From a virus, in the IMG/VR virus record IMGVR_UViG_3300045988_049297: a stretch of 45,341 nucleotides of DNA; one strand, given 5' to 3'. Of the stretch, positions 1 to 45,341 are shown in pieces. Both the position numbers and the translations under genes were made by a program. The notes beneath the pieces were generated by a model. The model saw only the letters and a list, made by a program, of their open reading frames with translations, had not been told where the DNA came from and made no database searches. How positions within the stretch are numbered: the stretch's first letter is position 1; every line of letters starts with the position of its first letter.

Positions 1-93
1 ATTTTTTTTATAGCGAGAAATGCCGTAGGAATATCTCGGACAGCATTTAAGGCGGTAGTTAGATTGATATATCGACCCATATATTCTTACTTC
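1..93. repeat. Terminal direct repeat, copy 1 (identical to 45249..45341)
   Basis: Bases 1..93 match 45249..45341 base for base (constant offset 45248 checked at several anchors). The unit length is therefore 45248 bp. 1..80 duplicates the 5' end of the gene at 44993..45328. Confidence 0.95.
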
Positions 94-242
94 CTTTTCT
101 TCATCGCTCTCGCCAACACCACGGCGGCGCAGTCCTGAGAGTCTTCGTCCCACCATGCACACCGCTGTTTCTGGCAGGGGCAGAGGGGAATGTCTTCGGG
201 GCAGCTCATAGACAACGGGCAAATTTTCTTCTCATTCTCCAT
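87..242 (-). CDS. Small Cys-rich protein, 51 aa, hypothetical
   Basis: ATG at 242..240, TAA at 89..87; below the ORF-track length cutoff. Hand translation: MENEKKICPLSMSCPEDIPLCPCQKQRCAWWDEDSQDCAAVVLARAMKKRK. It fills the gap before the next start codon (80..78) and overlaps the MazF-like 3' tail by 37 nt. Confidence 0.4.
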   Translation of the reverse strand: MENEKKICPLSMSCPEDIPLCPCQKQRCAWWDEDSQDCAAVVLARAMKKRK

Positions 243-595
243 CGTCTACACCCCCCCCCATAAAAGAAAGCGTTCTTCAAAGCGGTGTCCACATGGCGTA
301 TGATCTCAGGCGGCAGGGTGCAAATGTACTTCCAGTCTTCGGTCACATCAATGACTCGAACCTGTTCACACTCGACCATGCTCGGCTGTAAACTACCCCA
401 AGTGATCGCAACATGGGTCGGCATTTCCAGCCGCTTGAACTTAGTGGTCATGGGAACGACAATGCTGGTGGGCGAAAACTGGTTGCCGACATTGTTCTGC
501 ACGACCACCCACGGACGCTTACCGGCCTGAACATGACCGCTGGCAGGCAGAGGAACATCAATGACAACAACATCGCCACGCTGATAAGGTTTCAT
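206..595 (-). CDS. MazF/PemK (EndoA-like) endoribonuclease toxin homologue
   Basis: From ATG 595: MKPYQRGDVVVIDVPLPASGHVQAGKRPWVVVQNNVGNQFSPTSIVVPMTT..PTHVAI. This follows the Bacillus EndoA/MazF pattern (RGDV, G-x-RP-x-VV-QN-x-GN-x-SPT-x-IV). ATG lies 2 nt after the prim-pol TAA. The ORF-track extension to 667 overlaps prim-pol and is rejected. Confidence 0.8.
   Translation of the reverse strand: MKPYQRGDVVVIDVPLPASGHVQAGKRPWVVVQNNVGNQFSPTSIVVPMTTKFKRLEMPTHVAITWGSLQPSMVECEQVRVIDVTEDWKYICTLPPEIIRHVDTALKNAFFYGGGCRRWRMRRKFARCL
251..259 (-). repeat. G9 homopolymer (C9 on + strand) in the 3' tail of the MazF-like gene
   Basis: Plus strand reads ccccccccc at 251..259, encoding GGG in ..FFYGGGCRRWRMRRKFARCL. 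G8 would give ..YGGGVDDGE-stop and G10 ..YGGGV-stop. Lies 9 nt upstream of the Cys-rich ORF start codon. Confidence 0.95.
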
Positions 596-597
596 AG

Positions 598-1383
598 TTA
601 CCTCCTGTATCTGGTCACGCTGTTGACAATCAACTCGACCTCGGATTGAGGGAGCGGCGGCTTGCAAGCCTGTTGATTGGCATACAGCAGTTCTTTGTAA
701 ATCTCTGCTTTGGTGTATCCTTGGTTGTGAAGCTGACCCGCCAGAGAAGTCAGGCTGAGGTTCCGGCTTCCCGGTGTGATAGGCGGGTATTCAGGCTTCA
801 AATGCAGCTTGCCATTTTCGGGGCGGCGGTAGATGGGGGAATAGATACGCTGAGGGGCGACCGTACCTGAGCTACTTTCCTTCGGCGTGTCGGGAAAATA
901 CTTCTCGATCACATAGTCAATCGCTGACTGGTTTTCAACGATCTCGGAGAAGATCAAAACCTCGCCGGTCATGATGAAGTACCGATTGCTCTTGTAAATC
1001 TCCACGGCGGCACGGTTGTTCTTACCCTTGAAGGGCAGCTCGCCACGAACGAGAATGTGAACCCCTCTCCCGCTTCTGGACTTTTCCGTGTAGGAGTGGC
1101 AACGACCAATAATGTCAGCCGCCAGAGGGTTTAGAAGCCCATCAGTAAAGCCATCGTCAATGTCGATACCTACAACCCCTGTATCGTGAAACACATAGCC
1201 AAGACCGTCATAGTAGCCGTGCTGGACATTGTGTTCAGCGTCAATGTAATTTGACCATGTATCCGGGTTAGATGAAGAAGCCGCCTTTCTGACGGTGGCC
1301 TGCATGGGAACCTTTGACCCGTCCCATACATTGACCCATGCCTTTTCCCCTCGAAGTTCAGCGGGTATATTCAAATAGCTCAT
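598..1383 (-). CDS. Archaeo-eukaryotic-type DNA primase-polymerase (prim-pol) with PriCT-1-like C-terminal domain
   Basis: AEP motifs GVVGIDIDD and SRSGRGVHILV. C-terminal NLSLTSLAGQLHNQGYTKAEIYKELLYANQ..LPQSEVELIVNSV resembles PriCT-1. GAGG RBS 7 nt before ATG 1383. Confidence 0.75.
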   Translation of the reverse strand: MSYLNIPAELRGEKAWVNVWDGSKVPMQATVRKAASSSNPDTWSNYIDAEHNVQHGYYDGLGYVFHDTGVVGIDIDDGFTDGLLNPLAADIIGRCHSYTEKSRSGRGVHILVRGELPFKGKNNRAAVEIYKSNRYFIMTGEVLIFSEIVENQSAIDYVIEKYFPDTPKESSSGTVAPQRIYSPIYRRPENGKLHLKPEYPPITPGSRNLSLTSLAGQLHNQGYTKAEIYKELLYANQQACKPPLPQSEVELIVNSVTRYRR

Positions 1384-14417: not shown

Positions 14418-14433
14418 TTCCCGTTGACGGGAA
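14418..14433. promoter_or_regulatory. Operator O2: TTCCCGTTGACGGGAA (perfect 7+2+7 palindrome)
   Basis: Same half-site as O1, 51 bp away centre to centre, ending 2 nt upstream of the repressor RBS (GGAGG, 14436..14440). Confidence 0.55.
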
Positions 14434-14447
14434 CGGAGGAAAACACG

Positions 14448-15077
14448 ATGACTTTCTATGAGCGGCTGACCGAACTACGCAGAGAAAAGGGATTAACTCA
14501 GAAACAGATTGTTGATGAACTCGATCTCGGTAAAAATTCTTTTGGGGACTGGAAGAGAGGGGCTATCCCTGTCCGTTCCACTCAGCAACTTCTTGCCAAA
14601 TATTTCGGGGTATCGGTTGATTACCTTATGGGAAAAACTAATAACCCCATTCCTAATACGGAAACGGTAGGCACCTACATTCCGTATGAGAAACAGGGTT
14701 TGCGTCCAGTCATCGGTTTAGCTTCGGCAGGAACAGGGGTGATTGCAGAAGAAATGATTGTTGGTTGGGAAACAGTTGATGACGAATACGATAACGACAA
14801 CTGCTTTTGGCTCGAAGTATCTGGTAACAGCATGGCACCACAGATTGATAATGGCGATAGAGTGCTTATTCAGCGGGACGCAGAAATCGAGAGTGGCTGT
14901 ATTGCCGTGGTCGTGGTAGACGGTACAGACGGGTTTTTAAAACAAATCGAGTTCGGTGAGAACTCCACCTCGCTTCACTCGTTTAATCCGTATTATCCCG
15001 ACATGGAGTTTGTAGATGCCGACCAGAAACGTTTGCACTTTGTCGGTCGCGTCCGGGAAATGAAGCGGAGGTTCTGA
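14448..15077 (+). CDS. CI/LexA-like repressor (XRE HTH + S24 peptidase domain)
   Basis: N-terminal HTH LTQKQIVDELDLGKNSFGDWKRG. C-terminal S24 motifs GNSMAP (Ser) and DGFLKQI (Lys). GGAGG RBS before ATG 14448. Confidence 0.85.
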   Translation: MTFYERLTELRREKGLTQKQIVDELDLGKNSFGDWKRGAIPVRSTQQLLAKYFGVSVDYLMGKTNNPIPNTETVGTYIPYEKQGLRPVIGLASAGTGVIAEEMIVGWETVDDEYDNDNCFWLEVSGNSMAPQIDNGDRVLIQRDAEIESGCIAVVVVDGTDGFLKQIEFGENSTSLHSFNPYYPDMEFVDADQKRLHFVGRVREMKRRF

Positions 15078-15078
15078 T

Positions 15079-16743
15079 ATGCGCCAGAAGTTTAAGATCG
15101 ACCTCTCTATGCTGACCCCGGAAGAACAGCAGCAGTTTCGTGATGACCCTACCACCCTGACCAAAGGTGAAGTTGATGTCGCTTTGTACCTTCGGTTCAG
15201 TTCGGAACGGCAGAAAGAACAGTCCATTGAGGGGCAGCTTCGAGACTGTATTGCGTACTGTAAGCGCAAGAGCTTCCGCATTGTCGCCATTTATGTTGAC
15301 CGTGCTACTACTGCTCGGAAAGATGTAGAGAAGCGAGTCCATTTTCAGGAGATGATTTCCGACAGCGCTCATCATCTCTGGAACTTCGTGGTCGTGTGGA
15401 AGCTCGACCGCTTTGCCAGAAATAGAGAAGACAGCGCCGTGTTCAAAATGCGGCTGCGGAAGAATGGAGTTCGGGTCAAATCCGCAACCGAAACAATCTC
15501 TGATAACCCCGAAGGTATCATCTTAGAGTCTGTACTCGAAGGTATTGCCGAATACTATTCGGCAGACCTCAGCCAGAAAATCACTCGCGGATTGAGAGAG
15601 TCAGCCATGAAGGGTCATTCCGTTGGTGGCCATGTCCCGTTGGGCTACAAAATCGAAGATCATAGACTTGTAATAAATCCGGCAACCGCCCATATCGTAC
15701 AAGAAGCATTTCAACTCTACGCCAATGGCGAGAGCATGGCTGAGATTTGCCGTATCTTCAACGGCAAGGGCTACCGTACCGCCAAAAACTCGGAGTTTAA
15801 CCGAAGCAGTTTTAAATCCATGTTTAAAAATGTGCGGTATATCGGGACATACATCTACAAAGACATAAAGAAAGAAAACGCCATCCCAGCCATCATCGAC
15901 AAAGACCTCTTTGAAACGGTGCAACGGCGGCTTTCTTTGGCTGCTGACGCGCCCGCAAGGGGTAAAGCCAAGGTGGATTACCTCCTATCTGGAAAGCTGT
16001 TCTGCGGGCATTGCGGGGCTACTATGAACGGGGAAAGCGGTACGAGTAAAACCGGAGCTATCCACAACTACTACACCTGCTATTCACGGAAACGGCGAAA
16101 GGGCTGTGATAAGAAGCCATTAAAGAAAGATTTCATTGAACGCATTGTCGCACAGGACGCTATGGCGCTGCTTACCAACGATGTGATTGAGGAACTGGCC
16201 GACATGGCTATGTCGCAGGCGGACAGGGACTTGAAAGAAAACACCCGCATTCCTGAACTATCTACCAGACTCACCGAGATTGAACAAGGTATCAACAACA
16301 TCACTAAGGCCGTTGAAAAAGGAATTGCGTCTGACGCTCTCCTGGATCGCCTGACTGAGTTGGAGAAGGAAAAGAAAGACCTGACCTCTCAGCTTCGGGA
16401 AGAAGAAAAATACATCTACCGAATTGACAGAGATCAGGTGGTATTCTGGCTGACGAAGTTCCAAGGAGGCGATATAGAAGACGAGGATTGCAGGCGGCGC
16501 ATCATCGACCTTCTGGTAAATTCCGTGACGGTATGGGACGAACCTGACGGATATAAAATTACCACCGCATACAACCTCACTTCCTGCAAAACAAAGACTT
16601 TCCGGGTCAGCAACAACGCTGACTCTCCTTCCGGGGAAGGGTTCGGATTTGGGGAGCTATCGTCCACCATTGGACGCATATCCGAACCCTACATTGTGTG
16701 GGGAACGGTATTCGTCCAAACCAAAAGACACTCCTTGTCTTAA
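15079..16743 (+). CDS. int: Large serine recombinase (integrase)
   Basis: Resolvase catalytic domain (VALYLRFSSERQ), recombinase domain, Zn-ribbon CGHCG..YYTCYSRKRRKGC, coiled-coil (LTEIEQGINNITKAVEKG..LTELEKEKKDL). 554 aa. Confidence 0.9.
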   Translation: MRQKFKIDLSMLTPEEQQQFRDDPTTLTKGEVDVALYLRFSSERQKEQSIEGQLRDCIAYCKRKSFRIVAIYVDRATTARKDVEKRVHFQEMISDSAHHLWNFVVVWKLDRFARNREDSAVFKMRLRKNGVRVKSATETISDNPEGIILESVLEGIAEYYSADLSQKITRGLRESAMKGHSVGGHVPLGYKIEDHRLVINPATAHIVQEAFQLYANGESMAEICRIFNGKGYRTAKNSEFNRSSFKSMFKNVRYIGTYIYKDIKKENAIPAIIDKDLFETVQRRLSLAADAPARGKAKVDYLLSGKLFCGHCGATMNGESGTSKTGAIHNYYTCYSRKRRKGCDKKPLKKDFIERIVAQDAMALLTNDVIEELADMAMSQADRDLKENTRIPELSTRLTEIEQGINNITKAVEKGIASDALLDRLTELEKEKKDLTSQLREEEKYIYRIDRDQVVFWLTKFQGGDIEDEDCRRRIIDLLVNSVTVWDEPDGYKITTAYNLTSCKTKTFRVSNNADSPSGEGFGFGELSSTIGRISEPYIVWGTVFVQTKRHSLS

Positions 16744-34801: not shown

Positions 34802-36454
34802 TCAAATAGGCCGTTTGAAAACCTCCACCTTGCCCCCGGACAGCATACGGATTTCGTTCTCCAACAGGGAGAGGGAATCGGGGGCGTCATCGTGCGGAAC
34901 CTTACCGGAGCGGGTGTATGTGGTCACTTCCTTCATGAAGTTCCAATACTGACTGCCCCGCTTGTAGGTAGAAGGGTGCTTGAAGTAGAAATTCTTCTTG
35001 ATGTTGTCGGAAGCGAACTCGATACGAGTCTGCTTATTAGAGATCGTGCGCTTCGTGCGGATACCCACGGAGTACCCACGCTCACGAATGATCTGGTCAA
35101 CATCTCTGGCATAATACTGCCCGGCATTATTGGACTCAAAAACAGCAGAAGCAACTCTATTTTCAATCAGGCACTTGGCGCATTCCGGCTTCGTCACCTC
35201 AGCGGGGGAGTCATCAAAGACCACATCAACGATATACACATCGCTGCCGTAAATCTTCGCCACCGGCATGGAGGTCGAGTCTGAGCCGCTTTCCGCCGTA
35301 TCGCCAACGGCGATGATGGTATCCGGGTCACGGTCTTTCGGTAGCTCGAAAAAATAGTTCAGCTCTTCCTTGTTGAACAACAGACCCTTCGCCTCAAAGG
35401 GTTGCTGCTGGAACTCGCTTTCAAACTGCTCTGCGCTCAGAAGCTCCCGCTGCTCCCGAAAATAGGCGGTGGTAAAGACCTTCTTGCCCTCCCGCTCGTA
35501 TTCATAATTGCTCTCGTCCGTCACGAGATCGAGGGCGGGTATCTCAATCGCTCTCCAAGCCCAGCCCTCCCGCTGTGCGTGTTCCTGCACACGACCGATG
35601 GGGTCATACAGGGAATAGCGAGTGCCGGTAAAGACCATCGGCGTACCTTCAATGGCACGACCCATAATATCGCCAGAGATCACTTCCCACTTGTCATCAA
35701 GCCGCTGGCGGTTCTTCGCTTCCTCACGACCCTCTACACAGTCATCGAGGTAGAGGACATTGGTGGCTTCGGACAAGCCCACCTGTCGAGCGTCAATGGA
35801 ACGACACATGATGGTGGGGAAACGGGACTTGTTTTTCAGGTTCACCGTCTTCGTGTCGGCGTTGGTCTGTACCAGCCGTGCGTCCGGGAACACATCGTAG
35901 AACAGATATTCATTTGGAACGGTCAGGTATTCCAGACAGCCGTTGTAGAAGCTCTTTACAAGGTCATCGCCTGTCCCTTCCATCAGGGTCGAGCGGTCAG
36001 GGAACTTCCCAGAGAGCATATTCACAAAATTGATGCCTGTTTGTGACTTACCCGCTCGCTTTGGCATGGAGATCGTCAAAAGACGCAGCTTCCCGTCCAG
36101 AACATCTTGAAACCCTTGCACCATCGGTCTGAGATAGTGCTTGCGGGGCGCATAAAACCGCTTTTCCGGCTTGCGGTCGAGTTCGATATAGGTCATGAAG
36201 GAGTCAAAATCATGGGGTGCTTCAAAGAGAAGACACCGCCGCCACTGTTCATAGAACTTCGCCCCGCCGCCACGGACTACCTGATCTGCGGAAAGCGCCA
36301 GCAGCTCCTTGTTCACCTTATGTGCCGCCGAGAAATCTTCGGTTTCCCACTCCCGGCACAGAGAAAAGAGGTCGCTGTACGCTCCGTTATCTCCCGGTCT
36401 GCGGTCGATCACGGCTCGGATAGAGCCGGAGAGTTTTTCATAATTCATGTGCAT
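34802..36454 (-). CDS. terL: Terminase large subunit
   Basis: 550 aa. Walker A-like MPKRAGKS, Walker B-like VLYLDD, C-terminal nuclease-type acidic motifs (IIAVGDTAESG, HDDAPDSL). Upstream of the portal gene. Confidence 0.9.
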   Translation of the reverse strand: MHMNYEKLSGSIRAVIDRRPGDNGAYSDLFSLCREWETEDFSAAHKVNKELLALSADQVVRGGGAKFYEQWRRCLLFEAPHDFDSFMTYIELDRKPEKRFYAPRKHYLRPMVQGFQDVLDGKLRLLTISMPKRAGKSQTGINFVNMLSGKFPDRSTLMEGTGDDLVKSFYNGCLEYLTVPNEYLFYDVFPDARLVQTNADTKTVNLKNKSRFPTIMCRSIDARQVGLSEATNVLYLDDCVEGREEAKNRQRLDDKWEVISGDIMGRAIEGTPMVFTGTRYSLYDPIGRVQEHAQREGWAWRAIEIPALDLVTDESNYEYEREGKKVFTTAYFREQRELLSAEQFESEFQQQPFEAKGLLFNKEELNYFFELPKDRDPDTIIAVGDTAESGSDSTSMPVAKIYGSDVYIVDVVFDDSPAEVTKPECAKCLIENRVASAVFESNNAGQYYARDVDQIIRERGYSVGIRTKRTISNKQTRIEFASDNIKKNFYFKHPSTYKRGSQYWNFMKEVTTYTRSGKVPHDDAPDSLSLLENEIRMLSGGKVEVFKRPI

Positions 36455-36464
36455 TTCCTTTCCA

Positions 36465-36505
36465 ACAAAAAAACGAGCTACCGTGTATTTCTACACAGAT
36501 AGCCC
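36465..36505 (-). terminator. Rho-independent terminator 10 nt upstream of the terL start
   Basis: Minus strand: GGGCTATCTGTGTA-GAAA-TACACGGTAGCTC, then GTTTTTTTG (T7 = 36473..36467). Preceded by box GACAGCCATGAC (36517..36506), paralogous to 33135..33146. Confidence 0.6.
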
Positions 36506-36540
36506 GTCATGGCTGTCACTTCTACCCTTGCAGAAGCCGA

Positions 36541-36630
36541 TTATAAAATTTTGGGAATGATAAACGCCAACACCAAAAGGATGAATATCACTTCAATCAC
36601 AAAACCAATAAACTTGAAAAAATATTTCAT
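36541..36630 (-). CDS. 29-aa hydrophobic peptide (candidate small membrane protein)
   Basis: Not in the ORF track. ATGA overlap with the upstream stop. Hand translation: MKYFFKFIGFVIEVIFILLVLAFIIPKIL. Followed by the 36465..36505 terminator. Confidence 0.35.
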   Translation of the reverse strand: MKYFFKFIGFVIEVIFILLVLAFIIPKIL

Positions 36631-37103
36631 TGGGCTATCATCTCACAATCTGACCACGATCCTGCGCTAAGACATTCCCCAATAAAGGTAATCGTGTCTC
36701 CGACTTTTACGGTTTTGAGATTATCTTCTTGGTCTTTCTCGAACTCAGCATAGAAAACAACAATAGTGTTATCAACTTTAGTTTCAAGAGTTAGGGTTGC
36801 TCCACCAGTAAGATTAAATAGGCCGTCGTTCGTCATCCCATCGATCTTAGCCGTGATTTGATAACGATTATGCTTATACATATCATCTGCCACCAGCTCG
36901 TTATCTTTATAGGCTCTATAAATCTCATCGAAGGTGGCCGTACCCACTTCGTTCATTAGAAGCTCTGGTGTAGGAGTAACTTCGATCTTGGAATCTCCAT
37001 TTTCCGTTAAGCTATCGTCTTGCCCGAAGATGGCAATTATCGAACTAATTGCGATAATAATTACGACAATCCAAAGCCAACGCTTTTTCTTCTTTGTCTT
37101 CAT
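36627..37103 (-). CDS. Membrane-anchored OB-fold (tRNA_anti-like-type) protein; candidate exclusion/moron protein
   Basis: N-terminal Lys-rich segment plus TM (WLWIVVIIIAISSIIAIF). C-terminal FDEIYRAYKDNELVADDMYKHNRYQITAKIDG..VGDTITFIGEC resembles the OB-fold family of membrane lipoproteins. The gene is visibly AT-rich. Confidence 0.55.
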   Translation of the reverse strand: MKTKKKKRWLWIVVIIIAISSIIAIFGQDDSLTENGDSKIEVTPTPELLMNEVGTATFDEIYRAYKDNELVADDMYKHNRYQITAKIDGMTNDGLFNLTGGATLTLETKVDNTIVVFYAEFEKDQEDNLKTVKVGDTITFIGECLSAGSWSDCEMIAQ

Positions 37104-37873
37104 TCATCACCAGCTCCCTTCAAAATCGGCTCGTGAACGCCCTTGACCCAATTCATATTCCCGTATTTATACATACCCTCGTACAGAGGACGGTTGCCGA
37201 GAATACTTTTGATGGTGGACACCTGAAACCGCTTGCCAGAACGGGTCTGGTATCCCGCCTTTTCCAGCAGCTCCGTGATACCCAGCATGGAAACGCCGTC
37301 CTCGTGCTTCTCGAAGATGAACTTCACGATAGGAGCTTCCTGCTCGTCAATAGTGAGAACACCATCAACTACCTTGTAGCCGTAAGGACGGCGACCACCG
37401 CTGTATCCACCGCAGGAAGCCTTGATGGAACGACCCTTGCCGGTTCGCAGAGCGATGTTCTTTCTCTCCTGCTCTGCCACGAATTGAAGCAGCGCACGGT
37501 AGATGTTGGCGAACTCGCTGCCCTCTGTGAAGCTCTCCTGCGTACTCAGAAGTTTGATGTTCTTCTTTTCCAGCACATACAGGTAGTAAAAGTACAGCTT
37601 GGTATCACGAGCCACACGATCATTCTTGAATACGATCACCGCTTCATAGGGAGGGTTGCTTACATCATCGCCGTATAGAATGGAGTTCAGGCCGGGACGG
37701 TCATCTTTCGTACCGCTGATTTCATCAATCTTCCAGTCTACGATGTTATAGCCGTTGTCGTTGGCGTAAAGAAGAATAGCCTGCTTCTGAACCTCGATAC
37801 CGTATTTGTCATCATCGGCCTGCCGTTCGGTGGAGACTCGGATATAGCCGATTGCATTTTTGAATGTCATCAT
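37100..37873 (-). CDS. Truncated serine recombinase (catalytic + recombinase domains; no Zn-ribbon or coiled-coil)
   Basis: AIGYIRVSTERQ (catalytic Ser), ..VIVFKNDRVARD.., GGRRPYGYKV. Ends ..VKGVHEPILKGAGDE, where large serine recombinases normally continue into the Zn-ribbon. ATG 37873 follows the promoter at 37893..37921. Confidence 0.75.
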   Translation of the reverse strand: MMTFKNAIGYIRVSTERQADDDKYGIEVQKQAILLYANDNGYNIVDWKIDEISGTKDDRPGLNSILYGDDVSNPPYEAVIVFKNDRVARDTKLYFYYLYVLEKKNIKLLSTQESFTEGSEFANIYRALLQFVAEQERKNIALRTGKGRSIKASCGGYSGGRRPYGYKVVDGVLTIDEQEAPIVKFIFEKHEDGVSMLGITELLEKAGYQTRSGKRFQVSTIKSILGNRPLYEGMYKYGNMNWVKGVHEPILKGAGDE

Positions 37874-37892
37874 AAGATCACCCCTTGCGTAT

Positions 37893-37921
37893 AAGATAGC
37901 ATAGGTAAATGTAATTGTCAA
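37893..37921 (-). promoter_or_regulatory. Island promoter 1: TTGACA-17-TATCTT
   Basis: Minus strand: TTGACA (37921..37916), spacer ATTACATTTACCTATGC, TATCTT (37898..37893). The -35 is flanked by direct TTACCTAT repeats (plus-strand ataggtaa at 37901..37908 and 37921..37928). Shares ATGCTATCTT with promoter 39508..39536. Confidence 0.5.
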
Positions 37922-38049
37922 TAGGTAAGTGTAAATAAGCCTTTTTATTTTTTGCGGGTATTTTTCAGCTCACCCCGCCCTCGCCGCCGCTGGCATATCC
38001 CCCGGCCCCATCACCCATTCACGCCGCCCCGATCGGGCCGGAAAAGCGC

Positions 38050-38082
38050 AAAAAATAACCGCCCCGGTGCTATCCGGGGCGG
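38050..38082 (-). terminator. Rho-independent terminator after the four-gene cassette
   Basis: Minus strand: CCGCCCCGG-ATAGCA-CCGGGGCGG, then TTATTTTTT (stems at 38074..38082 and 38059..38067). Confidence 0.75.
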
Positions 38083-38159
38083 CGTTCACTTATTCAGTTT
38101 TAGTATGTCAATCAAAATTTGCACCGGCAGGAAAAGCAGCAGAAGAATAATATACAATC

Positions 38160-38483
38160 TTATCCAACCTCCACAATTTTCAAAACATGATAGCGCCCTA
38201 ACACGGTATAAATAGCTGACTTATTCGGCGCGTATAGCTCCATAATTCCATAGTAGCGAGTTTTCACCCAATACACCCGGCAAAACTCACGCAAGGAAAA
38301 CGCCCACCCGCCAATTTTAACAACAGGAGTTTGCAACGTTTTTATTGTTGCGAATTGCCTATAATATTCCTTTATGGCGTTTTTATCGCCGTTTTCGTAT
38401 GCCGCAATGGCTACAGCAACGCGGGATTTTAACGCGCTTTCAATCGGCACGGGCTCCCAATTCACAAATCGCCAATAATTCAT
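38160..38483 (-). CDS. Hypothetical protein (107 aa), island cassette gene 4
   Basis: Compact operon arrangement. AT-richer than the phage backbone. No family recognised. Confidence 0.55.
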   Translation of the reverse strand: MNYWRFVNWEPVPIESALKSRVAVAIAAYENGDKNAIKEYYRQFATIKTLQTPVVKIGGWAFSLREFCRVYWVKTRYYGIMELYAPNKSAIYTVLGRYHVLKIVEVG

Positions 38484-38485
38484 AA

Positions 38486-38743
38486 TTAAACCCCCATTCT
38501 AATACATTCATCAAGCGGGATTTTGTACCCGTCAACCCTAAAAAATGCGCTGTCTTTATCGTTTGCGGGGTAATAGATTTTACACCGATGAAAACGCCGA
38601 GCGGCTTTCCCGCCGTACCAACAACCCGAAACACAATAAACAAAATCATTTACACCGCATTCAATGCCCTTTATTTCAAGCCCATTCAAGCCGCTGTAAT
38701 AGGCGATACTTTCCCGGCTTTCGCAATACTCGCGTTTATTCAT
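38486..38743 (-). CDS. Hypothetical Cys-containing protein (85 aa), island cassette gene 3
   Basis: Overlaps the upstream gene by 8 nt. No family recognised. Confidence 0.55.
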   Translation of the reverse strand: MNKREYCESRESIAYYSGLNGLEIKGIECGVNDFVYCVSGCWYGGKAARRFHRCKIYYPANDKDSAFFRVDGYKIPLDECIRMGV

Positions 38744-39080
38744 GGCGTGTTACCTCATCAATAAATGCCCTTGCAAGCTGTTTAAGCTGTTCCCGCTGTT
38801 CCTTCCACGCAAGCGAATAATTATAGCGGATTTTTTCCGCGTCCGTTTCGTACCGTTCCCGCAATTCATAGGACGGGCGAATATTTCCGAATGGGGCATA
38901 TCCGGTCACAATGGCAACCCCGCCGCCCATATCGTAAATATCAGCCGCCCACCCCTCGCGGCGTACCGTGTACGCAACCGGGCTTTCATAATTCAAAAGG
39001 TTTTGCAATCCGCAATAGGGCACGCAAATAATATCATTGTAATTCGCCCGGATTGCCTTTTGTGTTGTCTTGAATTTCAT
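38736..39080 (-). CDS. Hypothetical protein (114 aa), island cassette gene 2
   Basis: VPYCGLQNLLNYESPVAYT..GWAADIY..VTGYAPFGN resembles a family I recall from Firmicutes plasmids, ICEs and phages with unknown function. This is unverified. Confidence 0.55.
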   Translation of the reverse strand: MKFKTTQKAIRANYNDIICVPYCGLQNLLNYESPVAYTVRREGWAADIYDMGGGVAIVTGYAPFGNIRPSYELRERYETDAEKIRYNYSLAWKEQREQLKQLARAFIDEVTRHE

Positions 39081-39094
39081 TTAACACACCCCTT

Positions 39095-39454
39095 TCAATA
39101 ATTCATGTTGCTAGCTGCACGGCGGTTATACATGGCTCTTAAACTTTCGGCGGGGGTCATATCCGCCGCCATACTGTAACGGGGCGTTTCTTCCACCGAA
39201 AGCGCGTCCCACCATGCTTTCCCACCACCATTTATATTATAGAATGAAAGAAAGCTATTTACATGGCGCATTGTAGTAACAGAATAACCGCCCCACATAC
39301 GAACGAACCGCCCCGCCGCCGTGATACGGCAAACAAAAGTATTATAGGACTGTAAAACTTTTTCGCCGTTTTCCGTTTCAATGATTTTCGCCTTTCCGTA
39401 AAAACTCTTTGCCCGATCAGAACCGCAAACGGGTAAATCAAAAATTTTTTTCAT
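39095..39454 (-). CDS. Hypothetical protein (119 aa), island cassette gene 1
   Basis: AAAGGGG RBS 9 nt before ATG 39454. KAKIIETENGEKVLQSYNTFV..YSVTTMRHVNSF pattern recalled from mobile-element proteins. This is unverified. Confidence 0.55.
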   Translation of the reverse strand: MKKIFDLPVCGSDRAKSFYGKAKIIETENGEKVLQSYNTFVCRITAAGRFVRMWGGYSVTTMRHVNSFLSFYNINGGGKAWWDALSVEETPRYSMAADMTPAESLRAMYNRRAASNMNY

Positions 39455-39507
39455 GATATAAGCCCCTTTCAAAATTCAATTTGCATTTACTGCCTTTCGG
39501 TAAATAC

Positions 39508-39536
39508 AAGATAGCATATTTGTATTTACCTGTCAA
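39508..39536 (-). promoter_or_regulatory. Island promoter 2: TTGACA-17-TATCTT with a 10-bp inverted repeat around the -10
   Basis: Minus strand: TTGACA (39536..39531), spacer GGTAAATACAAATATGC, TATCTT (39513..39508). GGTAAATACA and TGTATTTACC (39499..39508 and 39521..39530) bracket the -10. Confidence 0.55.
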
Positions 39537-39722
39537 GTGTAAACGCAAAAGAAAATCAAGATTTTTTGTAAATGGGGGCGCTATACATTATAAAGGGCAA
39601 AAACGCGGCCCCGATCAGGCCGGGCACCGACAGCGCCCACGCGGCCCCGGTAGAACCCGCCGCCGATCAGCCGGGGAAAGGAAAAGCCGCCGACCTCGTG
39701 GGGAGATCGGCAGCTCTGTCAA

Positions 39723-39857
39723 AGTCGCTGACCCTCGCCGGAAAGTCGTAAAGTCGTTCGGGCGAAAGTCGCAAAAGTCGTGGAAAAGTCGTAAAGTCGC
39801 TCGGCATAGTCGTAAGCTATAGTCGCAAAAGTCGCTCAATCCTCCGAGTCATAGTCG
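39723..39857 (-). repeat. Array of 11 same-orientation heptamers A(A/T)AGTCG(C/T) (minus strand CGACT(T/A)T) at the 3' end of terS
   Basis: AGTCG cores at 39723, 39744, 39752, 39767, 39776, 39787, 39795, 39808, 39821, 39830 and 39853 (spacing 8-23 nt). Two more at 40406 and 40425 flank the terS start. One inverted copy at 40080..40086. Confidence 0.9.
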
Positions 39858-40405
39858 CCGGATGCACCAACCACATCTTCGAGATACTTCTTCTCCAAGT
39901 CCTCAGCGGGAACCTGATCTCCGAGCTGCTGGTTGGGTGTCAACACGACCTCCTGCTTGTCCGCATAGCCCATGTTGTTCTTCATCAGGAAGATACCGGC
40001 GACCGGATTGATCTTCCCGTTCTGCATATAGTTTTCCATCTGAGCGTTCAAAAAATAATACGCCTTTTTTAGTGTGGTACGACTTTCGGTGGGGATATAG
40101 GCGCTATCCACACCATTACACCAACACCACAGAGTTTTTCTATCAACCCCGAACGCCAATGCCATACCAGCAACAGAGGGTTTCATATCATCTTCGGCAC
40201 AAATCCGAAAGTAATTCCCAATACGCTCAGTCACAGCTTCCGGTTTGGTCATATCCACAGCAGGCCAGTCCCACATTTTCAGATCGTGTTCAATAAACTT
40301 CCGATTATCTCCCGGTTGAAGCTGTGCGGTACTATCGGGCCGCTTATTACCGCCAGTACCTTTCGGTCTGCCACGACCGCGCTTTTCCACAATTTCATCT
40401 GCCAT
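39836..40405 (-). CDS. terS: Terminase small subunit (gp3 DNA-packaging-protein type)
   Basis: N-terminal GRGRPKGTGG, HTH-like PSVAGMALAFGVDRKTLWCW, ..KINPVAGIFLMKNNMGYADKQEV.. This matches the gp3-type small terminase pattern as I recall it. Acidic C-terminus. Confidence 0.7.
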   Translation of the reverse strand: MADEIVEKRGRGRPKGTGGNKRPDSTAQLQPGDNRKFIEHDLKMWDWPAVDMTKPEAVTERIGNYFRICAEDDMKPSVAGMALAFGVDRKTLWCWCNGVDSAYIPTESRTTLKKAYYFLNAQMENYMQNGKINPVAGIFLMKNNMGYADKQEVVLTPNQQLGDQVPAEDLEKKYLEDVVGASGDYDSED

Positions 40406-40432: not shown

Positions 40433-40541
40433 AGGTGATAAAGGTGAGTAATCGGGTGCATTTCCCTATAACTATTTCTATATACGCGCGTATAAGAGAG
40501 AGTTATAGGCATTTATGCCCGATTACTCACCTAACTCACCT
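40433..40541. repeat. Nested palindromic element, copy B
   Basis: Same 24-nt left arm as copy A (40433..40456). Inner dyad at 40465..40509 around TATACGCGCGTATA (40481..40494). Right arm CCCGATTACTCACCT + AACTCACCT (40518..40541). About 92 of ~111 hand-aligned columns match copy A in direct orientation. Confidence 0.9.
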
Positions 40542-40584: not shown

Positions 40585-40600
40585 AGTCTTTGCAAAAACA

Positions 40601-40625
40601 CTCACCTTTATCACCTTTATCACCT
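40601..40625. repeat. Three tandem 9-bp iterons (TCACCTTTA x2 + TCACCT)
   Basis: TCACCT at 40602, 40611 and 40620, with exact 9-bp phasing. Overlaps the stop codon of the XRE-family gene. Confidence 0.9.
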
Positions 40626-43316: not shown

Positions 43317-43492
43317 TACGAACGCTCCTTCACAATGCGGATTTTTCTCAGGCGCTTGCCGCACCGCTTACAGACTTCATAATTGCTCTGCCAACGATGA
43401 GAACCATTACGGTACTTGACCTGAATGTGAACATACGGGTCTACCGAGTGAATACCGAAGCGGCAGAGGATAGAGTTACATGAACGGTTCAT
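43316..43492 (-). CDS. Small Zn-finger-like protein (58 aa)
   Basis: MNRSCNSILCRFGIH..CKRCG. TAATG overlap with the helicase stop. Confidence 0.45.
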   Translation of the reverse strand: MNRSCNSILCRFGIHSVDPYVHIQVKYRNGSHRWQSNYEVCKRCGKRLRKIRIVKERS

Positions 43493-45000
43493 TAGGACGC
43501 TCCTTTCAGTCTGAGGTTCTTGTAGACGGGGTAGCCCTGATACACGACCTTGCCGCCGTGCCACTCAGGGTGCGTTTCCATGTCGGCATTGAACCGCTTG
43601 GCAGAACAGGCAAAGTACCCGTTGGACTTGCACCAAATCTTGTATGCGTCAAACAGAGACTTCGAGCGGGTGTTGACCCCCTCAGCTTGCTCACAGCGTT
43701 CTTCGAGGAACTGCAAGCACAGATCGTTGTCACGCTCGTACTGGTTGACTACCTTCCGCATGGCGGGGGACATTTTCAGACCGAACCGCTTGTACTTGAA
43801 GTATCCGGCGACCAGCCAAGCGAAAATGCCCTGCATAGCTTCCTGTGTCTGGAACTCATTTTTCAGGTTCTTGTCCTGCTCCGCTTCGGTGAAGTGGCGG
43901 TTAAACTCAATGACCCGTACACGGTCGGAAGCGAACAGGGACTTATCGCTGACGGTGGGAAGATCGTTACAGGAAAGCCAAAGGGTGAACTGCGGCAGGA
44001 AGGTCGTGGCAGTCTCATAGAGGTTCCGAGCCTTGATTTCCTCGCCGCCTGTGAGCTGCTTGATCGTTTCCTCGTCCAGCTTGCCATACTGGTTGCTCTC
44101 TGCCATCGTGACGAACCGCTTGCCTTTCAGGGAAGCCAGCATGGGGTTCGCTGCTTCGGCGTTCTTCGACCGTTCTGCCTTGCAGATGATTGACACGGGG
44201 GACACGGACGCATAGTCACCGAGAAGGTGGTGAATTGCCGAGAGCATGGTGGACTTACCGTTGCGAGTGGTCTTGCCGTGGAGAATGAACATACATTCCT
44301 CGTTCGCCATACCCAGCATGGAGTACCCCAGCGCCTTTTGAAGATAATCAGCCTTGTCTTCGTCATTACAAGTGACTTCCGCAACAAACTTCTCCCAGCG
44401 GCGGCACCGTGCGTCCTGCAAGGTGTAGTTGAAGTTGGTCTGCATAGTCAGGAAGTCTTTCCAATCATGTTCCCGGAACTCCATTTTTTCGAGGTCGAAA
44501 GTGCCGTTCTTGCAGTTGATAAGGTAGGGGTTTGCGTCAAACTCCGCCGAAGCGATAGGAAGCACACTGGCAGCGTCCTTCATCAGCCGATCACGGAAGC
44601 GCCGGTCGCCCATCTTCACGATGAACTTCATGTACTCGGAACGCCGTTCTTCGTTGGCAATCTCACCGCAGTAGAGAGCCATCAGGCGGCAGAACTCTTT
44701 GATCTTTTCCGCTACCAGCAGAGAACCCGTGTCCTTGCGCCATGCGCCCTCGGAGTAGGTGAACCAGCTTTTCGCTTCGGGGCAGTAGCGGGTATCATTC
44801 TTGTAGCACTCGGAGAACAGCTCCGCCATGCCGGACTCGTCCCACGAATACCCCGTGCCGCTGATCGGGTGGCTATGCTCAGGCTGTGCTTCCTTAATCT
44901 GAAACATCACTCTGGACTGAGCTTCGTCCATGATGTAGCGACCGTTGGAGAGCTGAAAAAGAGCCTGTTCTTCGGGGGCGGTCATAATTTCATCAGCCAT
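43492..45000 (-). CDS. D5_N / P4-family SF3 replicative helicase (primase C-terminal-type)
   Basis: D5_N-like ANPYLINCKNGTFDL, Walker A HGKTTRNGKST, Walker B-like RFVTMAES, SCNDLP. C-terminal winged-helix-like KSLFDAYKIWCKSNGY. AAGAGG RBS before ATG 45000. Confidence 0.85.
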   Translation of the reverse strand: MADEIMTAPEEQALFQLSNGRYIMDEAQSRVMFQIKEAQPEHSHPISGTGYSWDESGMAELFSECYKNDTRYCPEAKSWFTYSEGAWRKDTGSLLVAEKIKEFCRLMALYCGEIANEERRSEYMKFIVKMGDRRFRDRLMKDAASVLPIASAEFDANPYLINCKNGTFDLEKMEFREHDWKDFLTMQTNFNYTLQDARCRRWEKFVAEVTCNDEDKADYLQKALGYSMLGMANEECMFILHGKTTRNGKSTMLSAIHHLLGDYASVSPVSIICKAERSKNAEAANPMLASLKGKRFVTMAESNQYGKLDEETIKQLTGGEEIKARNLYETATTFLPQFTLWLSCNDLPTVSDKSLFASDRVRVIEFNRHFTEAEQDKNLKNEFQTQEAMQGIFAWLVAGYFKYKRFGLKMSPAMRKVVNQYERDNDLCLQFLEERCEQAEGVNTRSKSLFDAYKIWCKSNGYFACSAKRFNADMETHPEWHGGKVVYQGYPVYKNLRLKGAS

Positions 45001-45328
45001 TTTTAACACCTCTTTTCATCTTTGGCGGCTTCGGTAAAGGTGTCCAAGCTAAGACCTTTACTTTCTGCCCTTGTGCCACCTCACCACCCCAATTTCCGTT
45101 GAACTGGTATCCGATACCGAAGGCCTGATACATTTGGTTATACTCTCCGAAACGGAAATACTCGTACCAGCAAAGTACATTTTCGCCATTCGGAGGTAAT
45201 GCTTCATTTGCCAAAGTCCAAGTTACAGGAATGGTTTCCACGATAGGTATTTTTTTTATAGCGAGAAATGCCGTAGGAATATCTCGGACAGCATTTAAGG
45301 CGGTAGTTAGATTGATATATCGACCCAT
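44993..45328 (-). CDS. DUF551-like protein (111 aa)
   Basis: W-x-x-x-x-E-x-LPP-x-G-x-x-VL pattern (WTLANEALPPNGENVLCWY) as in DUF551 phage proteins. Its start lies inside the terminal repeat. Confidence 0.5.
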   Translation of the reverse strand: MGRYINLTTALNAVRDIPTAFLAIKKIPIVETIPVTWTLANEALPPNGENVLCWYEYFRFGEYNQMYQAFGIGYQFNGNWGGEVAQGQKVKVLAWTPLPKPPKMKRGVKNG

Positions 45329-45341
45329 ATATTCTTACTTC
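45249..45341. repeat. Terminal direct repeat, copy 2
   Basis: Identical to 1..93. Confidence 0.95.

What the first reader, a model, noticed from the sequence alone, without database searches (positions are those of the whole stretch)
36465..39835. 3.4-kb accessory island splits terS from terL and carries its own promoters and terminators
terS (39836..40405) and terL (34802..36454) are normally adjacent. Here they are separated by two units:
1. A four-gene cassette of unknown proteins, with its own TTGACA-17-TATCTT promoter and a strong terminator.
2. A second unit with the same promoter type, a truncated serine recombinase, an AT-rich OB-fold membrane protein and a 29-aa hydrophobic peptide, ending in another terminator 10 nt before terL.

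The island is visibly more AT-rich than the backbone, and I saw no promoter for terL itself. It looks like a laterally acquired moron, anti-defence or exclusion island, or a decayed hitchhiking element, in an unusual and risky position for the phage.
Basis: partly seen in the sequence, partly recalled or inferred. Interest (0 to 1): 0.7.

Follow-up and report, generated by a model that had tools for sequence, protein, structure and literature searches.

The report
Self-regulated accessory gene slot between terminase genes
The 3.4 kb between the two DNA-packaging genes is not a recent insertion but a fixed, fast-changing accessory-gene slot shared by a whole lineage of gut Clostridia phages, with two small operons that appear to be controlled by the slot's own regulator, here an uncharacterised short serine recombinase.

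Summary
The reading of it as an insertion or a decayed element does not hold.

- **The split is shared by the lineage.** In all 67 close relatives that carry both genes (terL at least 97% identical), terS and terL lie 2.9-5.3 kb apart. The split also occurs in distant prophages (terL down to about 62-68%) and in the cultured Clostridium phage Maintenon (terL 37%). No relative has the two genes adjacent.
- **The contents turn over fast.** The relative whose terL and portal are 100% identical carries a different island.
- **The recombinase is not truncated.** It belongs to a large family of about 250-aa serine recombinases (catalytic domain plus 'Recombinase' domain, no zinc ribbon). It is under strong purifying selection (dN/dS 0.02-0.11) and is conserved upstream of terL at 42-72% identity.
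- **The two promoters are coupled.** They carry matching operator-like palindromes, and the operator type co-varies perfectly (63 of 63 loci) with the first gene of the second unit, while the genes between the promoters are shuffled.

Most likely this is a conserved, terminator-insulated accessory slot. One operon is autoregulated and encodes the recombinase/regulator plus membrane proteins (Sie-like). It represses a cassette of early small proteins (DUF8033 and others). The protein functions remain inferred.

The parts
39836..40405 (-). terS (small terminase, 189 aa), the upstream border of the slot
   Evidence: PF16677 GP3_package E 1.9e-10; phrog_606
39721..39834 (-). Array of 10 direct CGACT[T/A]T heptamers just after the terS stop; probable TerS/pac recognition site
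   Evidence: 8 exact CGACTTT copies within 114 nt. The array is present in nearly all close loci. The motif changes to GCAGAA[A/G]G where terS is only 31-37% identical.
39606..39622 (-). Terminator-like hairpin plus T-run inside a GC-rich stretch (about 39600-39720), before promoter P_A
   Evidence: repeat family D1
39486..39543 (-). Promoter P_A (TTGACA 39536-39531, TATCTT 39513-39508), overlapped by two TTTAC-N9-GTAAA palindromes (operator-like)
   Evidence: The operator type co-varies with the type of the second unit.
39095..39451 (-). Unit A gene 1: DUF8033 (PF26096) protein, about 118 aa
   Evidence: phrog_4264. PF26096 is recorded for all homologues. AF2 pLDDT 80; Foldseek hits to viral DUF8033 proteins including Staphylococcus phage A3R TreP. 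No PDB match.
38736..39080 (-). Unit A gene 2, 114 aa, unknown
   Evidence: 998 homologues, none named. AF2 model poor, pLDDT 59.
38486..38743 (-). Unit A gene 3, 85 aa, phrog_17101, unknown
38160..38483 (-). Unit A gene 4, 107 aa, unknown; present in only 6 of 67 related loci
38058..38083 (-). Strong intrinsic terminator ending unit A
   Evidence: 10-bp stem, 9 G-C pairs, T-run
37940..38040 (-). Conserved element rich in G-runs (GGGGGATAT...GGGCGGGGTGAG...CCCGCAAAAAATAAAAAGG), function unknown. Sequence specific to each regulatory type starts immediately after it.
   Evidence: Shared by all three regulatory types, by distant loci and by the chromosomal remnant L108.
37893..37940 (-). Promoter P_B (TTGACA 37921-37916, TATCTT 37898-37893) with TTAC(A/C)(T/C)TTACCTAT operator-like repeats
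37100..37873 (-). Short serine recombinase (257 aa: catalytic domain, E-helix and 'Recombinase' domain; no zinc ribbon or coiled coil); candidate regulator of P_A and P_B
36627..37103 (-). Membrane-anchored OB-fold protein (Sie-like), the cargo of unit B
   Evidence: PF12869 E 3.7e-7; phrog_8545 E 4.4e-13. Replaced by other membrane proteins or lipoproteins in relatives.
36541..36630 (-). 29-aa hydrophobic peptide gene
   Evidence: Conserved as two allelic forms of the same length, after two different cargo genes.
36466..36537 (-). Leader of terL: hairpin 36537-36518, terminator hairpin 36508-36473, T-run 36472-36466
   Evidence: z-score -4.9. 6 of 11 pairs show compensatory changes across 14 sequences. 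Conserved whatever the cargo.
34802..36454 (-). terL (large terminase, 550 aa), the downstream border of the slot
   Evidence: phrog_38, TIGR01630

Best explanation
The interval between terS and terL is a fixed accessory-gene slot of this phage lineage. It was inherited as a slot, and its contents are exchanged by recombination.

**Layout in this genome**
- Unit B: promoter P_B, the short serine recombinase, the Sie-like membrane protein and the 29-aa peptide.
- Unit A: promoter P_A and four small cytoplasmic proteins, including a DUF8033 protein.

**Proposed working**
1. The first product of unit B binds palindromic operators that overlap both P_B and P_A. In this genome that product is the recombinase itself; in other types it is a small helix-turn-helix (HTH) protein followed by a small resolvase.
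2. Unit B is therefore autoregulated and stays on in the lysogen, supplying an envelope protein for superinfection exclusion or a similar function.
3. Unit A fires only while the regulator is absent or scarce, that is, just after DNA entry, and is then shut off.
4. Three intrinsic terminators insulate the units, so their transcription does not run into terL.
5. terL itself is reached by late transcription that starts upstream of terS and reads through these terminators (antitermination).

**What is shown and what is inferred**
- Shown: the anatomy, the conservation of the slot, the turnover of its contents, the matching of operators to regulators, and selection on the recombinase.
- Inferred: who binds the operators, the timing of expression, the exclusion and early-function roles, and the read-through.
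For: **The slot is conserved**
- terS and terL are 2.9-5.3 kb apart in 67 of 67 close loci.
- They are also apart in distant prophages of Oscillospiraceae, Lachnospiraceae and other families.
- They are 2.65 kb apart in phage Maintenon.

**The contents turn over**
- 47 ORF clusters occur in the slot.
- L003 has terL and portal 100% identical to the window but a different island.

**The two promoters are coupled**
- The P_A type, the P_B type and the type of the first unit-B gene agree in 63 of 63 classifiable loci. The three types number 28, 27 and 9 loci by first unit-B gene, 64 in all, one of which lacks a classifiable P_A (L012).
- The same unit-A gene sets occur under different types.
- HTH subgroups match operator types exactly.
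- Lineages with diverged recombinases have their own motif, shared by both promoters: L104 uses TTCGCAAAAAC; L110 and L113 use others.
- The window's motif occurs only at these two promoters.

**The recombinase is functional**
- The catalytic motifs R-V-S-T and D-R-x-x-R-D are kept at 42% identity.
- dN/dS is 0.02-0.11.
- The family is about 250 aa throughout.
- The phage has a separate 554-aa integrase, 27% identical to it.

**The cargo is always a membrane protein or lipoprotein**
- Sie-like OB-fold protein, a lipobox protein, or a glycine-zipper protein.

**The terminator before terL is conserved, with covariation**.

**A chromosomal remnant** keeps only unit B plus the terL leader, intact, in 306 member sequences.
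Against: - There are no expression data, so activity in the lysogen or early in infection is inferred from sequence only.
- Binding of the recombinase to the operators is not shown. A regulator encoded outside the retrieved flanks cannot be excluded.
- The loci are related and are not independent samples.
- The 'Sie-like' label rests on a PHROG annotation and a weak Pfam match.
- Unit A proteins match no anti-defence, defence or solved-structure family.
- No antiterminator was identified.
- The model leaves the catalytic activity of the recombinase without a substrate.
Confidence: 0.6

Rival explanations
1. Cassette-exchange platform. The serine recombinase acts on sites at or next to P_A and P_B (the operator palindromes or the G-run element) to excise, invert or swap unit A or the cargo. 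The slot would then be a small integron-like system, and the operator matching would reflect recombination-site specificity as much as regulation.
For: - Catalytic residues are conserved under purifying selection.
- A serine recombinase (short type or small resolvase) is present in all 67 close loci.
- P_A and P_B are 32-nt direct repeats, 75% identical, flanking unit A.
- Unit A lies in the opposite orientation in some relatives.
- Type-specific sequence begins at one sharp point after the conserved G-run element.
- The palindromes of about 29 bp have the size of serine-recombinase dimer sites (size comparison from general knowledge of res and hix sites).
Against: - No locus with an empty, precisely excised or inverted unit A was found among the 67 close relatives.
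- No inverted repeats flank unit A where it is reversed.
- The palindrome spacer is 9 bp, an odd number, which does not fit a central 2-bp crossover.
- Some distant loci have the HTH regulator and no recombinase.
- Directly repeated active sites would make unit A unstable, yet it is widespread.
Confidence: 0.15
2. Genome cyclisation or multimer resolution near pac, by analogy with Cre-lox of phage P1. The recombinase acts on a site 0.3-2 kb from the packaging start, so that first-headful, terminally redundant genomes carry two copies and can be circularised without host recombination.
For: - The recombinase gene is held between a pac-like TerS-specific repeat array and terL across deep divergence.
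- Two unrelated serine recombinase types alternate at the same place.
- P1 precedent: lox lies close to pac (general knowledge, not tested here).
Against: - The packaging start, its direction and the terminal redundancy are unknown.
- No recombination site has been identified.
- Some relatives lack any recombinase in the slot.
- The chromosomal remnant keeps the gene without any phage genome to resolve.
Confidence: 0.1
3. One reading: a recently acquired island or a decayed hitchhiking element inserted between terS and terL of this particular phage.
For: - GC is lower than in the backbone.
- The region has its own promoters and terminators.
- The recombinase is short compared with large serine integrases.
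Against: - There is no relative with adjacent terS-terL; the split reaches phages with terL only 35-37% identical.
- The recombinase is full length for its family and under purifying selection.
- The flanking non-coding elements are conserved across the clade.
Confidence: 0.05

Closest known systems
Morons of lambdoid phages (HK97/HK022-type: gene plus own promoter and terminator inside the late operon)
   Same: - Independent sigma-70-type promoter and intrinsic terminator.
- Set between conserved late genes on the same strand.
- Lower GC than the backbone.
- Differs between otherwise near-identical phages.
- Membrane or exclusion-type cargo.
   Different: - A permanent slot that is never empty.
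- Two coupled operons with a dedicated regulator and matched operators in at least three specificity types.
- Contains a serine recombinase.
- Lies between terS and terL.
- Prophage expression was not tested.
Accessory or defence hotspots of P2-like phages and P4 satellites (fixed positions with rapidly exchanged contents)
   Same: Conserved flanking genes, a fixed position, and high turnover of cargo among close relatives.
   Different: - No cargo matches a known defence system (PADLOC).
- The slot carries its own regulatory cassette.
Tn3/gamma-delta resolvase at res (a serine recombinase that also represses the promoters it overlaps)
   Same: - A serine recombinase gene sits directly behind a promoter overlapped by palindromic sites of about 28-30 bp.
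- A second promoter carries the same sites.
   Different: - The DNA-binding part is the 'Recombinase' domain of large serine recombinases, not an HTH_7 domain.
- There is no transposase.
- The two site clusters are 1.6 kb apart in tandem.
- Neither binding nor recombination has been shown.
Large serine integrases (A118, phiC31, Bxb1, TP901-1)
   Same: The catalytic domain and the Recombinase domain align: TP901-1 at E 3e-11, and A118 chain residues 7-108.
   Different: - The protein ends at the boundary of the Recombinase domain, with no zinc ribbon or coiled coil.
- It is only 27% identical to the phage's own 554-aa integrase.
- The whole family is about 250 aa.
Establishment genes under a dedicated repressor in plasmid leading regions (zygotic induction)
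   Same: A strong promoter with several operators for a regulator encoded on the same element predicts a burst of expression on entry, followed by shut-off.
   Different: - A phage that delivers double-stranded DNA.
- No homology to ArdA, PsiB, Ssb or other known families.
- The timing is inferred only.

Membership tests
Moron | Gene(s) set between conserved late or structural genes and differing between close relatives | tested here: met
   The slot lies between terS and terL, and its contents differ among phages whose terL is 97-100% identical.
Moron | Own promoter and own terminator | tested here: met
   Consensus-level matches only: two TTGACA-17-TATCTT sites and three hairpin-plus-T-run sites.
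Moron | Expressed from the repressed prophage | not testable with these tools
   Needs RNA-seq or reporter assays in a lysogen.
Moron | An addition relative to relatives that lack it (an empty site exists) | tested here: not met
   No relative with adjacent terS-terL among 67 close loci, more than 15 distant loci, or phage Maintenon.
Large serine recombinase / integrase | Catalytic N-terminal domain with the serine nucleophile | tested here: met
   PF00239 E 8e-25; YIRVST and DRVARD motifs conserved.
Large serine recombinase / integrase | Recombinase domain (PF07508) | tested here: met
   E 5e-10, profile positions 1-86 of 102; aligns to A118 integrase.
Large serine recombinase / integrase | Zinc-ribbon domain with coiled coil; length about 450-700 aa | tested here: not met
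   The protein is 257 aa and ends at HEPIL. Homologues down to about 35% identity are mostly 240-290 aa.
Small serine recombinase (resolvase/invertase) | Catalytic domain plus a C-terminal HTH_7 domain, about 180-210 aa | tested here: not met
   The C-terminal part is PF07508, not HTH_7. The alternative gene at this place in other loci (cluster C4) does fit: PF00239 plus a weak HTH_7 match.
Superinfection exclusion, Sie-like (phrog_8545) / PF12869 tRNA_anti-like | Profile match and an N-terminal membrane anchor | tested here: met
   phrog_8545 E 4.4e-13; PF12869 30.3 bits against a cut-off of 23.5; N-terminal WLWIVVIIIAISSIIAIFG.
Superinfection exclusion, Sie-like (phrog_8545) / PF12869 tRNA_anti-like | Blocks infection by other phages | not testable with these tools
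   Needs a plating assay.
Known anti-phage defence systems (PADLOC) | Match to any model | tested here: not met
   No hit for six island proteins or for four alternative cargo and unit-A proteins.
DUF8033 (PF26096) | Sequence and fold match | tested here: met
   PF26096 is recorded for all 120 listed homologues. Foldseek probability 1.00 to DUF8033 proteins, with weak E-values of 2e-3 and above.
P22 gp3-type small terminase | PF16677 above the gathering score | tested here: met
   41.3 bits against 29.4.

The most novel reading that the evidence does not exclude
The roughly 250-aa serine recombinases (catalytic domain plus Recombinase domain, no zinc ribbon) would be a distinct, uncharacterised class acting as dual repressor-recombinases. 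They would bind type-specific palindromes at both promoters and, together with the conserved G-run element, drive site-specific exchange of gene cassettes in a phage-borne, integron-like slot next to the packaging site.
Probability: 0.15. Interest if true: 0.8.

Novelty: new variant of a known kind. Interest (0 to 1): 0.5.

Why it matters
- **Annotation.** In a widespread lineage of human-gut Clostridia phages (517 viral contigs with a terL relative), terS and terL are not neighbours. This matters for annotation and for genome-end prediction.
- **A defined hotspot.** The work defines a compact, fast-changing accessory slot with clear borders and its own regulatory cassette in several specificity types. 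That makes it a natural place to look for new exclusion, host-takeover or anti-defence genes.
- **A neglected protein family.** It points to a large family of short serine recombinases, about 100 clusters at 50% identity, with no close homologue in cultured phages.
- **An experimental entry point.** The family's role can be tested directly, because a cultured lysogen exists: Dysosmobacter segnis BX15 (locus L084).

Tried and rejected
- **Truncated pseudogene of the phage's integrase:** rejected (27% identity; short family; dN/dS 0.02-0.11).
- **The short recombinase as the phage integrase:** unlikely, because a 554-aa large serine recombinase sits next to the CI-like repressor.
- **Invertible promoter (inverton) at P_B:** the only inverted repeat (37945-37956 with 38047-38058) is a T-run paired with an A-run and does not enclose the promoter.
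- **Control by the phage's main repressor or by the HTH gene upstream of terS:** the operator motif is absent from the rest of the window, and that HTH gene shows no association with operator type.
- **Regulator encoded in unit A or among the cargo genes:** no such gene is common to all loci of the window's type.
- **Known RNA families:** none for the terL leader, the G-run element or the intergenic regions. The G-run region shows no significant RNA fold, z -1.3.
- **Structure search of the DUF8033 protein:** no PDB match. The 114-aa protein modelled too poorly to search, pLDDT 59.
- **Pfam, PHROGs, NCBIfam and PADLOC scans** of unit A and of the alternative cargo proteins gave only unknown-function families.
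- **Literature searches** (DUF8033, PF26096, serine recombinase between terminase genes, short serine recombinases) found nothing specific.

Full report
**1.

On the minus strand the window encodes the following:
- terS, 39836-40405 (PF16677 GP3_package, above the gathering score).
- Four small ORFs: 39095-39472, 38736-39080, 38486-38743 and 38160-38483.
- A 273-codon serine recombinase ORF, 37100-37921 (Resolvase plus Recombinase domains).
- A 158-aa membrane-anchored OB-fold protein, 36627-37103 (PF12869; phrog_8545 'superinfection exclusion Sie-like').
- A 29-codon hydrophobic ORF, 36541-36630.
- terL, 34802-36454.

The promoter pattern TTGACA-17-TATCTT occurs exactly twice in 45 kb, at 39536-39508 and 37921-37893, against 0.17 expected by chance.

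Hairpin-plus-T-run terminators lie at 39622-39606 and 38083-38058. A third stem-loop (36508-36473) with a T-run ends 12 nt before the terL start; the leader it belongs to, with its two hairpins, folds with z = -4.9.

The island is 46.3% GC against 50.8% for the rest of the window, within the lowest 1% of 3.4-kb windows. The difference is uneven: the Sie-like gene is 40.9% GC and the recombinase 50.3%.

**2. The window is a whole temperate phage genome with its own integrase**

A CI-like repressor (14424-15077) sits next to a 554-aa large serine recombinase (15079-16743). Lysis, tail, head and replication modules fill the rest. The short recombinase in the island is only 27% identical to that integrase.

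**3. The split between terS and terL is a property of the lineage, not an insertion**

- A scan of viral contigs found 517 terL relatives. The best 80 have terL 97-100% identical.
- In every locus that holds both genes (67 including the window), terS and terL are 2.9-5.3 kb apart.
- The same holds in prophages of Oscillospiraceae, Lachnospiraceae, Butyricicoccus and others with terL 62-85% identical.
- It also holds in contigs retrieved through recombinase homologues.
- In the cultured Clostridium phage Maintenon (terL 37% identical), terS and terL are 2.65 kb apart, with small ORFs and two tRNAs between them.
- The nearest cultured host is Dysosmobacter segnis BX15 (locus L084).
- No relative with adjacent terS-terL was found.

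**4. The contents are mosaic**

ORFs in the slot fall into 47 clusters. The order is constant:
1. terS.
2. The heptamer array and a GC-rich stretch.
3. Promoter P_A.
4. Unit A: several alternative sets of small genes.
5. A terminator.
6. A conserved element rich in G-runs.
7. Promoter P_B.
8. Unit B.
9. An 85-nt leader.
10. terL.

Unit B begins with one of three arrangements:
- the short recombinase;
- an 86-aa helix-turn-helix (HTH) protein plus a roughly 200-aa resolvase;
- two HTH proteins, a BRO-like protein and a resolvase.

Unit B ends with one of several membrane proteins: the Sie-like OB-fold protein, a lipobox protein, or a glycine-zipper protein.

L003 has terL, portal and the 29-aa peptide 100% identical to the window, yet carries a 4.7-kb island of another type.

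**5. The recombinase is not truncated**

- Homologues at 42-72% identity, at the same place upstream of terL in distant prophages, are 248-278 aa. They end at the same HEPIL motif and keep the catalytic motifs R-V-S-T and D-R-x-x-R-D.
- The 120 closest database clusters are 250-366 aa, nearly all 250-305, with the same two Pfam domains. One 257-aa cluster alone has 1620 members.
- Among representatives at 50% identity, hits down to about 35% identity are mostly 240-290 aa. Proteins the size of large serine integrases appear only near E = 1e-30.
- Against 24 close copies and L089, dN/dS is 0.02-0.11 with dS 0.08-0.39.
- The protein aligns to the TP901-1 catalytic domain and to the Recombinase domain of A118 integrase, and stops where the zinc-ribbon domain would begin.
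- No annotated phage in GenBank has a close homologue.

**6. The two units form one regulatory system**

Each locus has two strong promoters, and their spacer sequences match each other:

| Type | First gene of unit B | P_A | P_B |
|---|---|---|---|
| I | short recombinase | GTAAATGCAA | TTACATTTACC |
| II | HTH protein (subgroup 0) | CAATAAAACRCTTGAT | CAATAAAACRCTTGAT |
| III | HTH protein (subgroup 2) | AAGTTAAAACTT | AAGTTAAAACTT |

- The P_A type, the P_B type and the first gene of unit B agree in 63 of 63 classifiable loci. The three types number 28, 27 and 9 loci by first unit-B gene, 64 in all, one of which lacks a classifiable P_A (L012). The same unit-A gene sets occur under different types.
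- The HTH subgroups (34-44% identical to each other) map one-to-one onto operator types.
- P_A carries three or four operator copies overlapping the -35 element, the spacer and the +1 position.
- In the window, the palindrome TTTAC-N9-GTAAA occurs twice, both times in P_A. The motif TRYATTTACC occurs three times, all in P_A or P_B, against 0.26 expected.
- Lineages with diverged short recombinases have their own motif shared by both promoters: L104 (63% identity) uses TTCGCAAAAAC; L110 and L113 use others.
- Within the slot, the recombinase is the only gene common to all type I loci.

I infer that the first product of unit B represses both promoters. In this genome that product is the recombinase, in the way resolvases repress at res. 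The inference is not proven, and the loci are related rather than independent.

**7. Non-coding elements**

- **Heptamer array.** Ten direct CGACT[T/A]T heptamers follow terS (39721-39834) and are present in nearly all close loci. Where terS is only 31-37% identical, the array is instead made of GCAGAA[A/G]G. This fits a TerS recognition (pac) site.
- **terL leader.** The 85-nt leader is conserved whatever the cargo, with compensatory changes in both hairpins. In the terminator stem, 6 of 11 pairs show compensatory changes. Since there is no room for a promoter behind it, terL must be reached by read-through of late transcription.
- **G-run element.** The element at 38040-37940 is shared by all three types and by distant loci. 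Type-specific sequence begins right after it. Its role is unknown.

**8. Protein functions remain largely unknown**

- The first unit-A protein is a DUF8033 protein. One structural neighbour is TreP of Staphylococcus phage A3R.
- The other unit-A proteins match no Pfam, NCBIfam, PADLOC or PDB entry.
- The 29-aa peptide exists in two allelic forms of equal length, after two different cargo genes, so it is probably real.

**9. A chromosomal remnant**

L108 keeps only the G-run element, P_B, a 75%-identical recombinase, two small genes, the double hairpin and 17 codons resembling the terL 5' end. It lies between housekeeping genes, and its recombinase cluster has 306 member sequences. Unit B can therefore persist without the phage.

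**10. Verdict**

The finding is real and well described, but it is a clade-wide, self-regulated accessory slot rather than a risky insertion or a decayed element. The moron and exclusion reading is plausible for unit B. The anti-defence reading of unit A is untested.

The more novel possibilities concern the recombinase: cassette exchange, or genome cyclisation near pac. They remain open and can be tested.

Noticed in passing
window 39721-39834 (-): Ten direct CGACT[T/A]T heptamers immediately after the terS stop. In loci with a distant terS family the array is made of GCAGAA[A/G]G instead. Probable TerS/pac recognition site.
   Followed up: partly
window 36466-36537 (-); also L085-L108: A conserved two-hairpin leader ending in a terminator-like stem and T-run sits directly before the terL ribosome-binding site. 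It shows compensatory base changes across phages with terL down to about 62% identity. No Rfam family matches.
   Followed up: partly
window 37940-38040 (-): Conserved non-coding element rich in G-runs (GGGGGATAT...GGGCGGGGTGAG...CCCGCAAAAAATAAAAAGG) upstream of P_B. It is shared by all regulatory types and by distant relatives, could form a G-quadruplex, and marks the sharp border of type-specific sequence.
   Followed up: partly
window 40433-40541 and 40600-40617: A 47-nt-arm imperfect palindrome lies directly upstream of terS, with a third copy of AAGGTGATAAAGGTGAGT nearby. As RNA it folds with z = -5.2. It may be the control region of the late operon.
   Followed up: partly
L108 6800-8440: Chromosomal remnant between a rhamnosidase gene and a polysaccharide deacetylase gene. 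It keeps only the G-run element, P_B, the short recombinase, two small genes, the double hairpin and a 17-codon stub resembling the terL 5' end. The recombinase cluster has 306 member sequences.
   Followed up: partly
L015, L022, L004, L068 (just downstream of the P_A operators): An optional leader insert of about 100 nt (caccttgaaaattaaatccccgtaca...ggccggtgaaataggctttcagcgtatcaaggc) is shared between loci of different regulatory types. No Rfam match.
   Followed up: partly
L110-L116: In relatives whose recombinase is 72-80% identical, unit A lies on the opposite strand, transcribed divergently from the recombinase, with the shared operator motif at both promoters.
   Followed up: partly
window 14424-16743 (+): The lysogeny module: a CI-like repressor followed by a 554-aa large serine integrase. 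It is the only + strand block, set among minus-strand genes.
   Followed up: partly
window 1-1383 and 43492-45341: Primase-family ORFs lie at both ends of the window (598-1383 and 43492-45009). Together with the complete set of phage modules, this suggests the window is a circularly permuted whole genome.
   Followed up: no
L024, L027 (directly after terS): In two relatives an HNH/NUMOD4 homing-endonuclease gene is inserted between terS and the repeat array.
   Followed up: no
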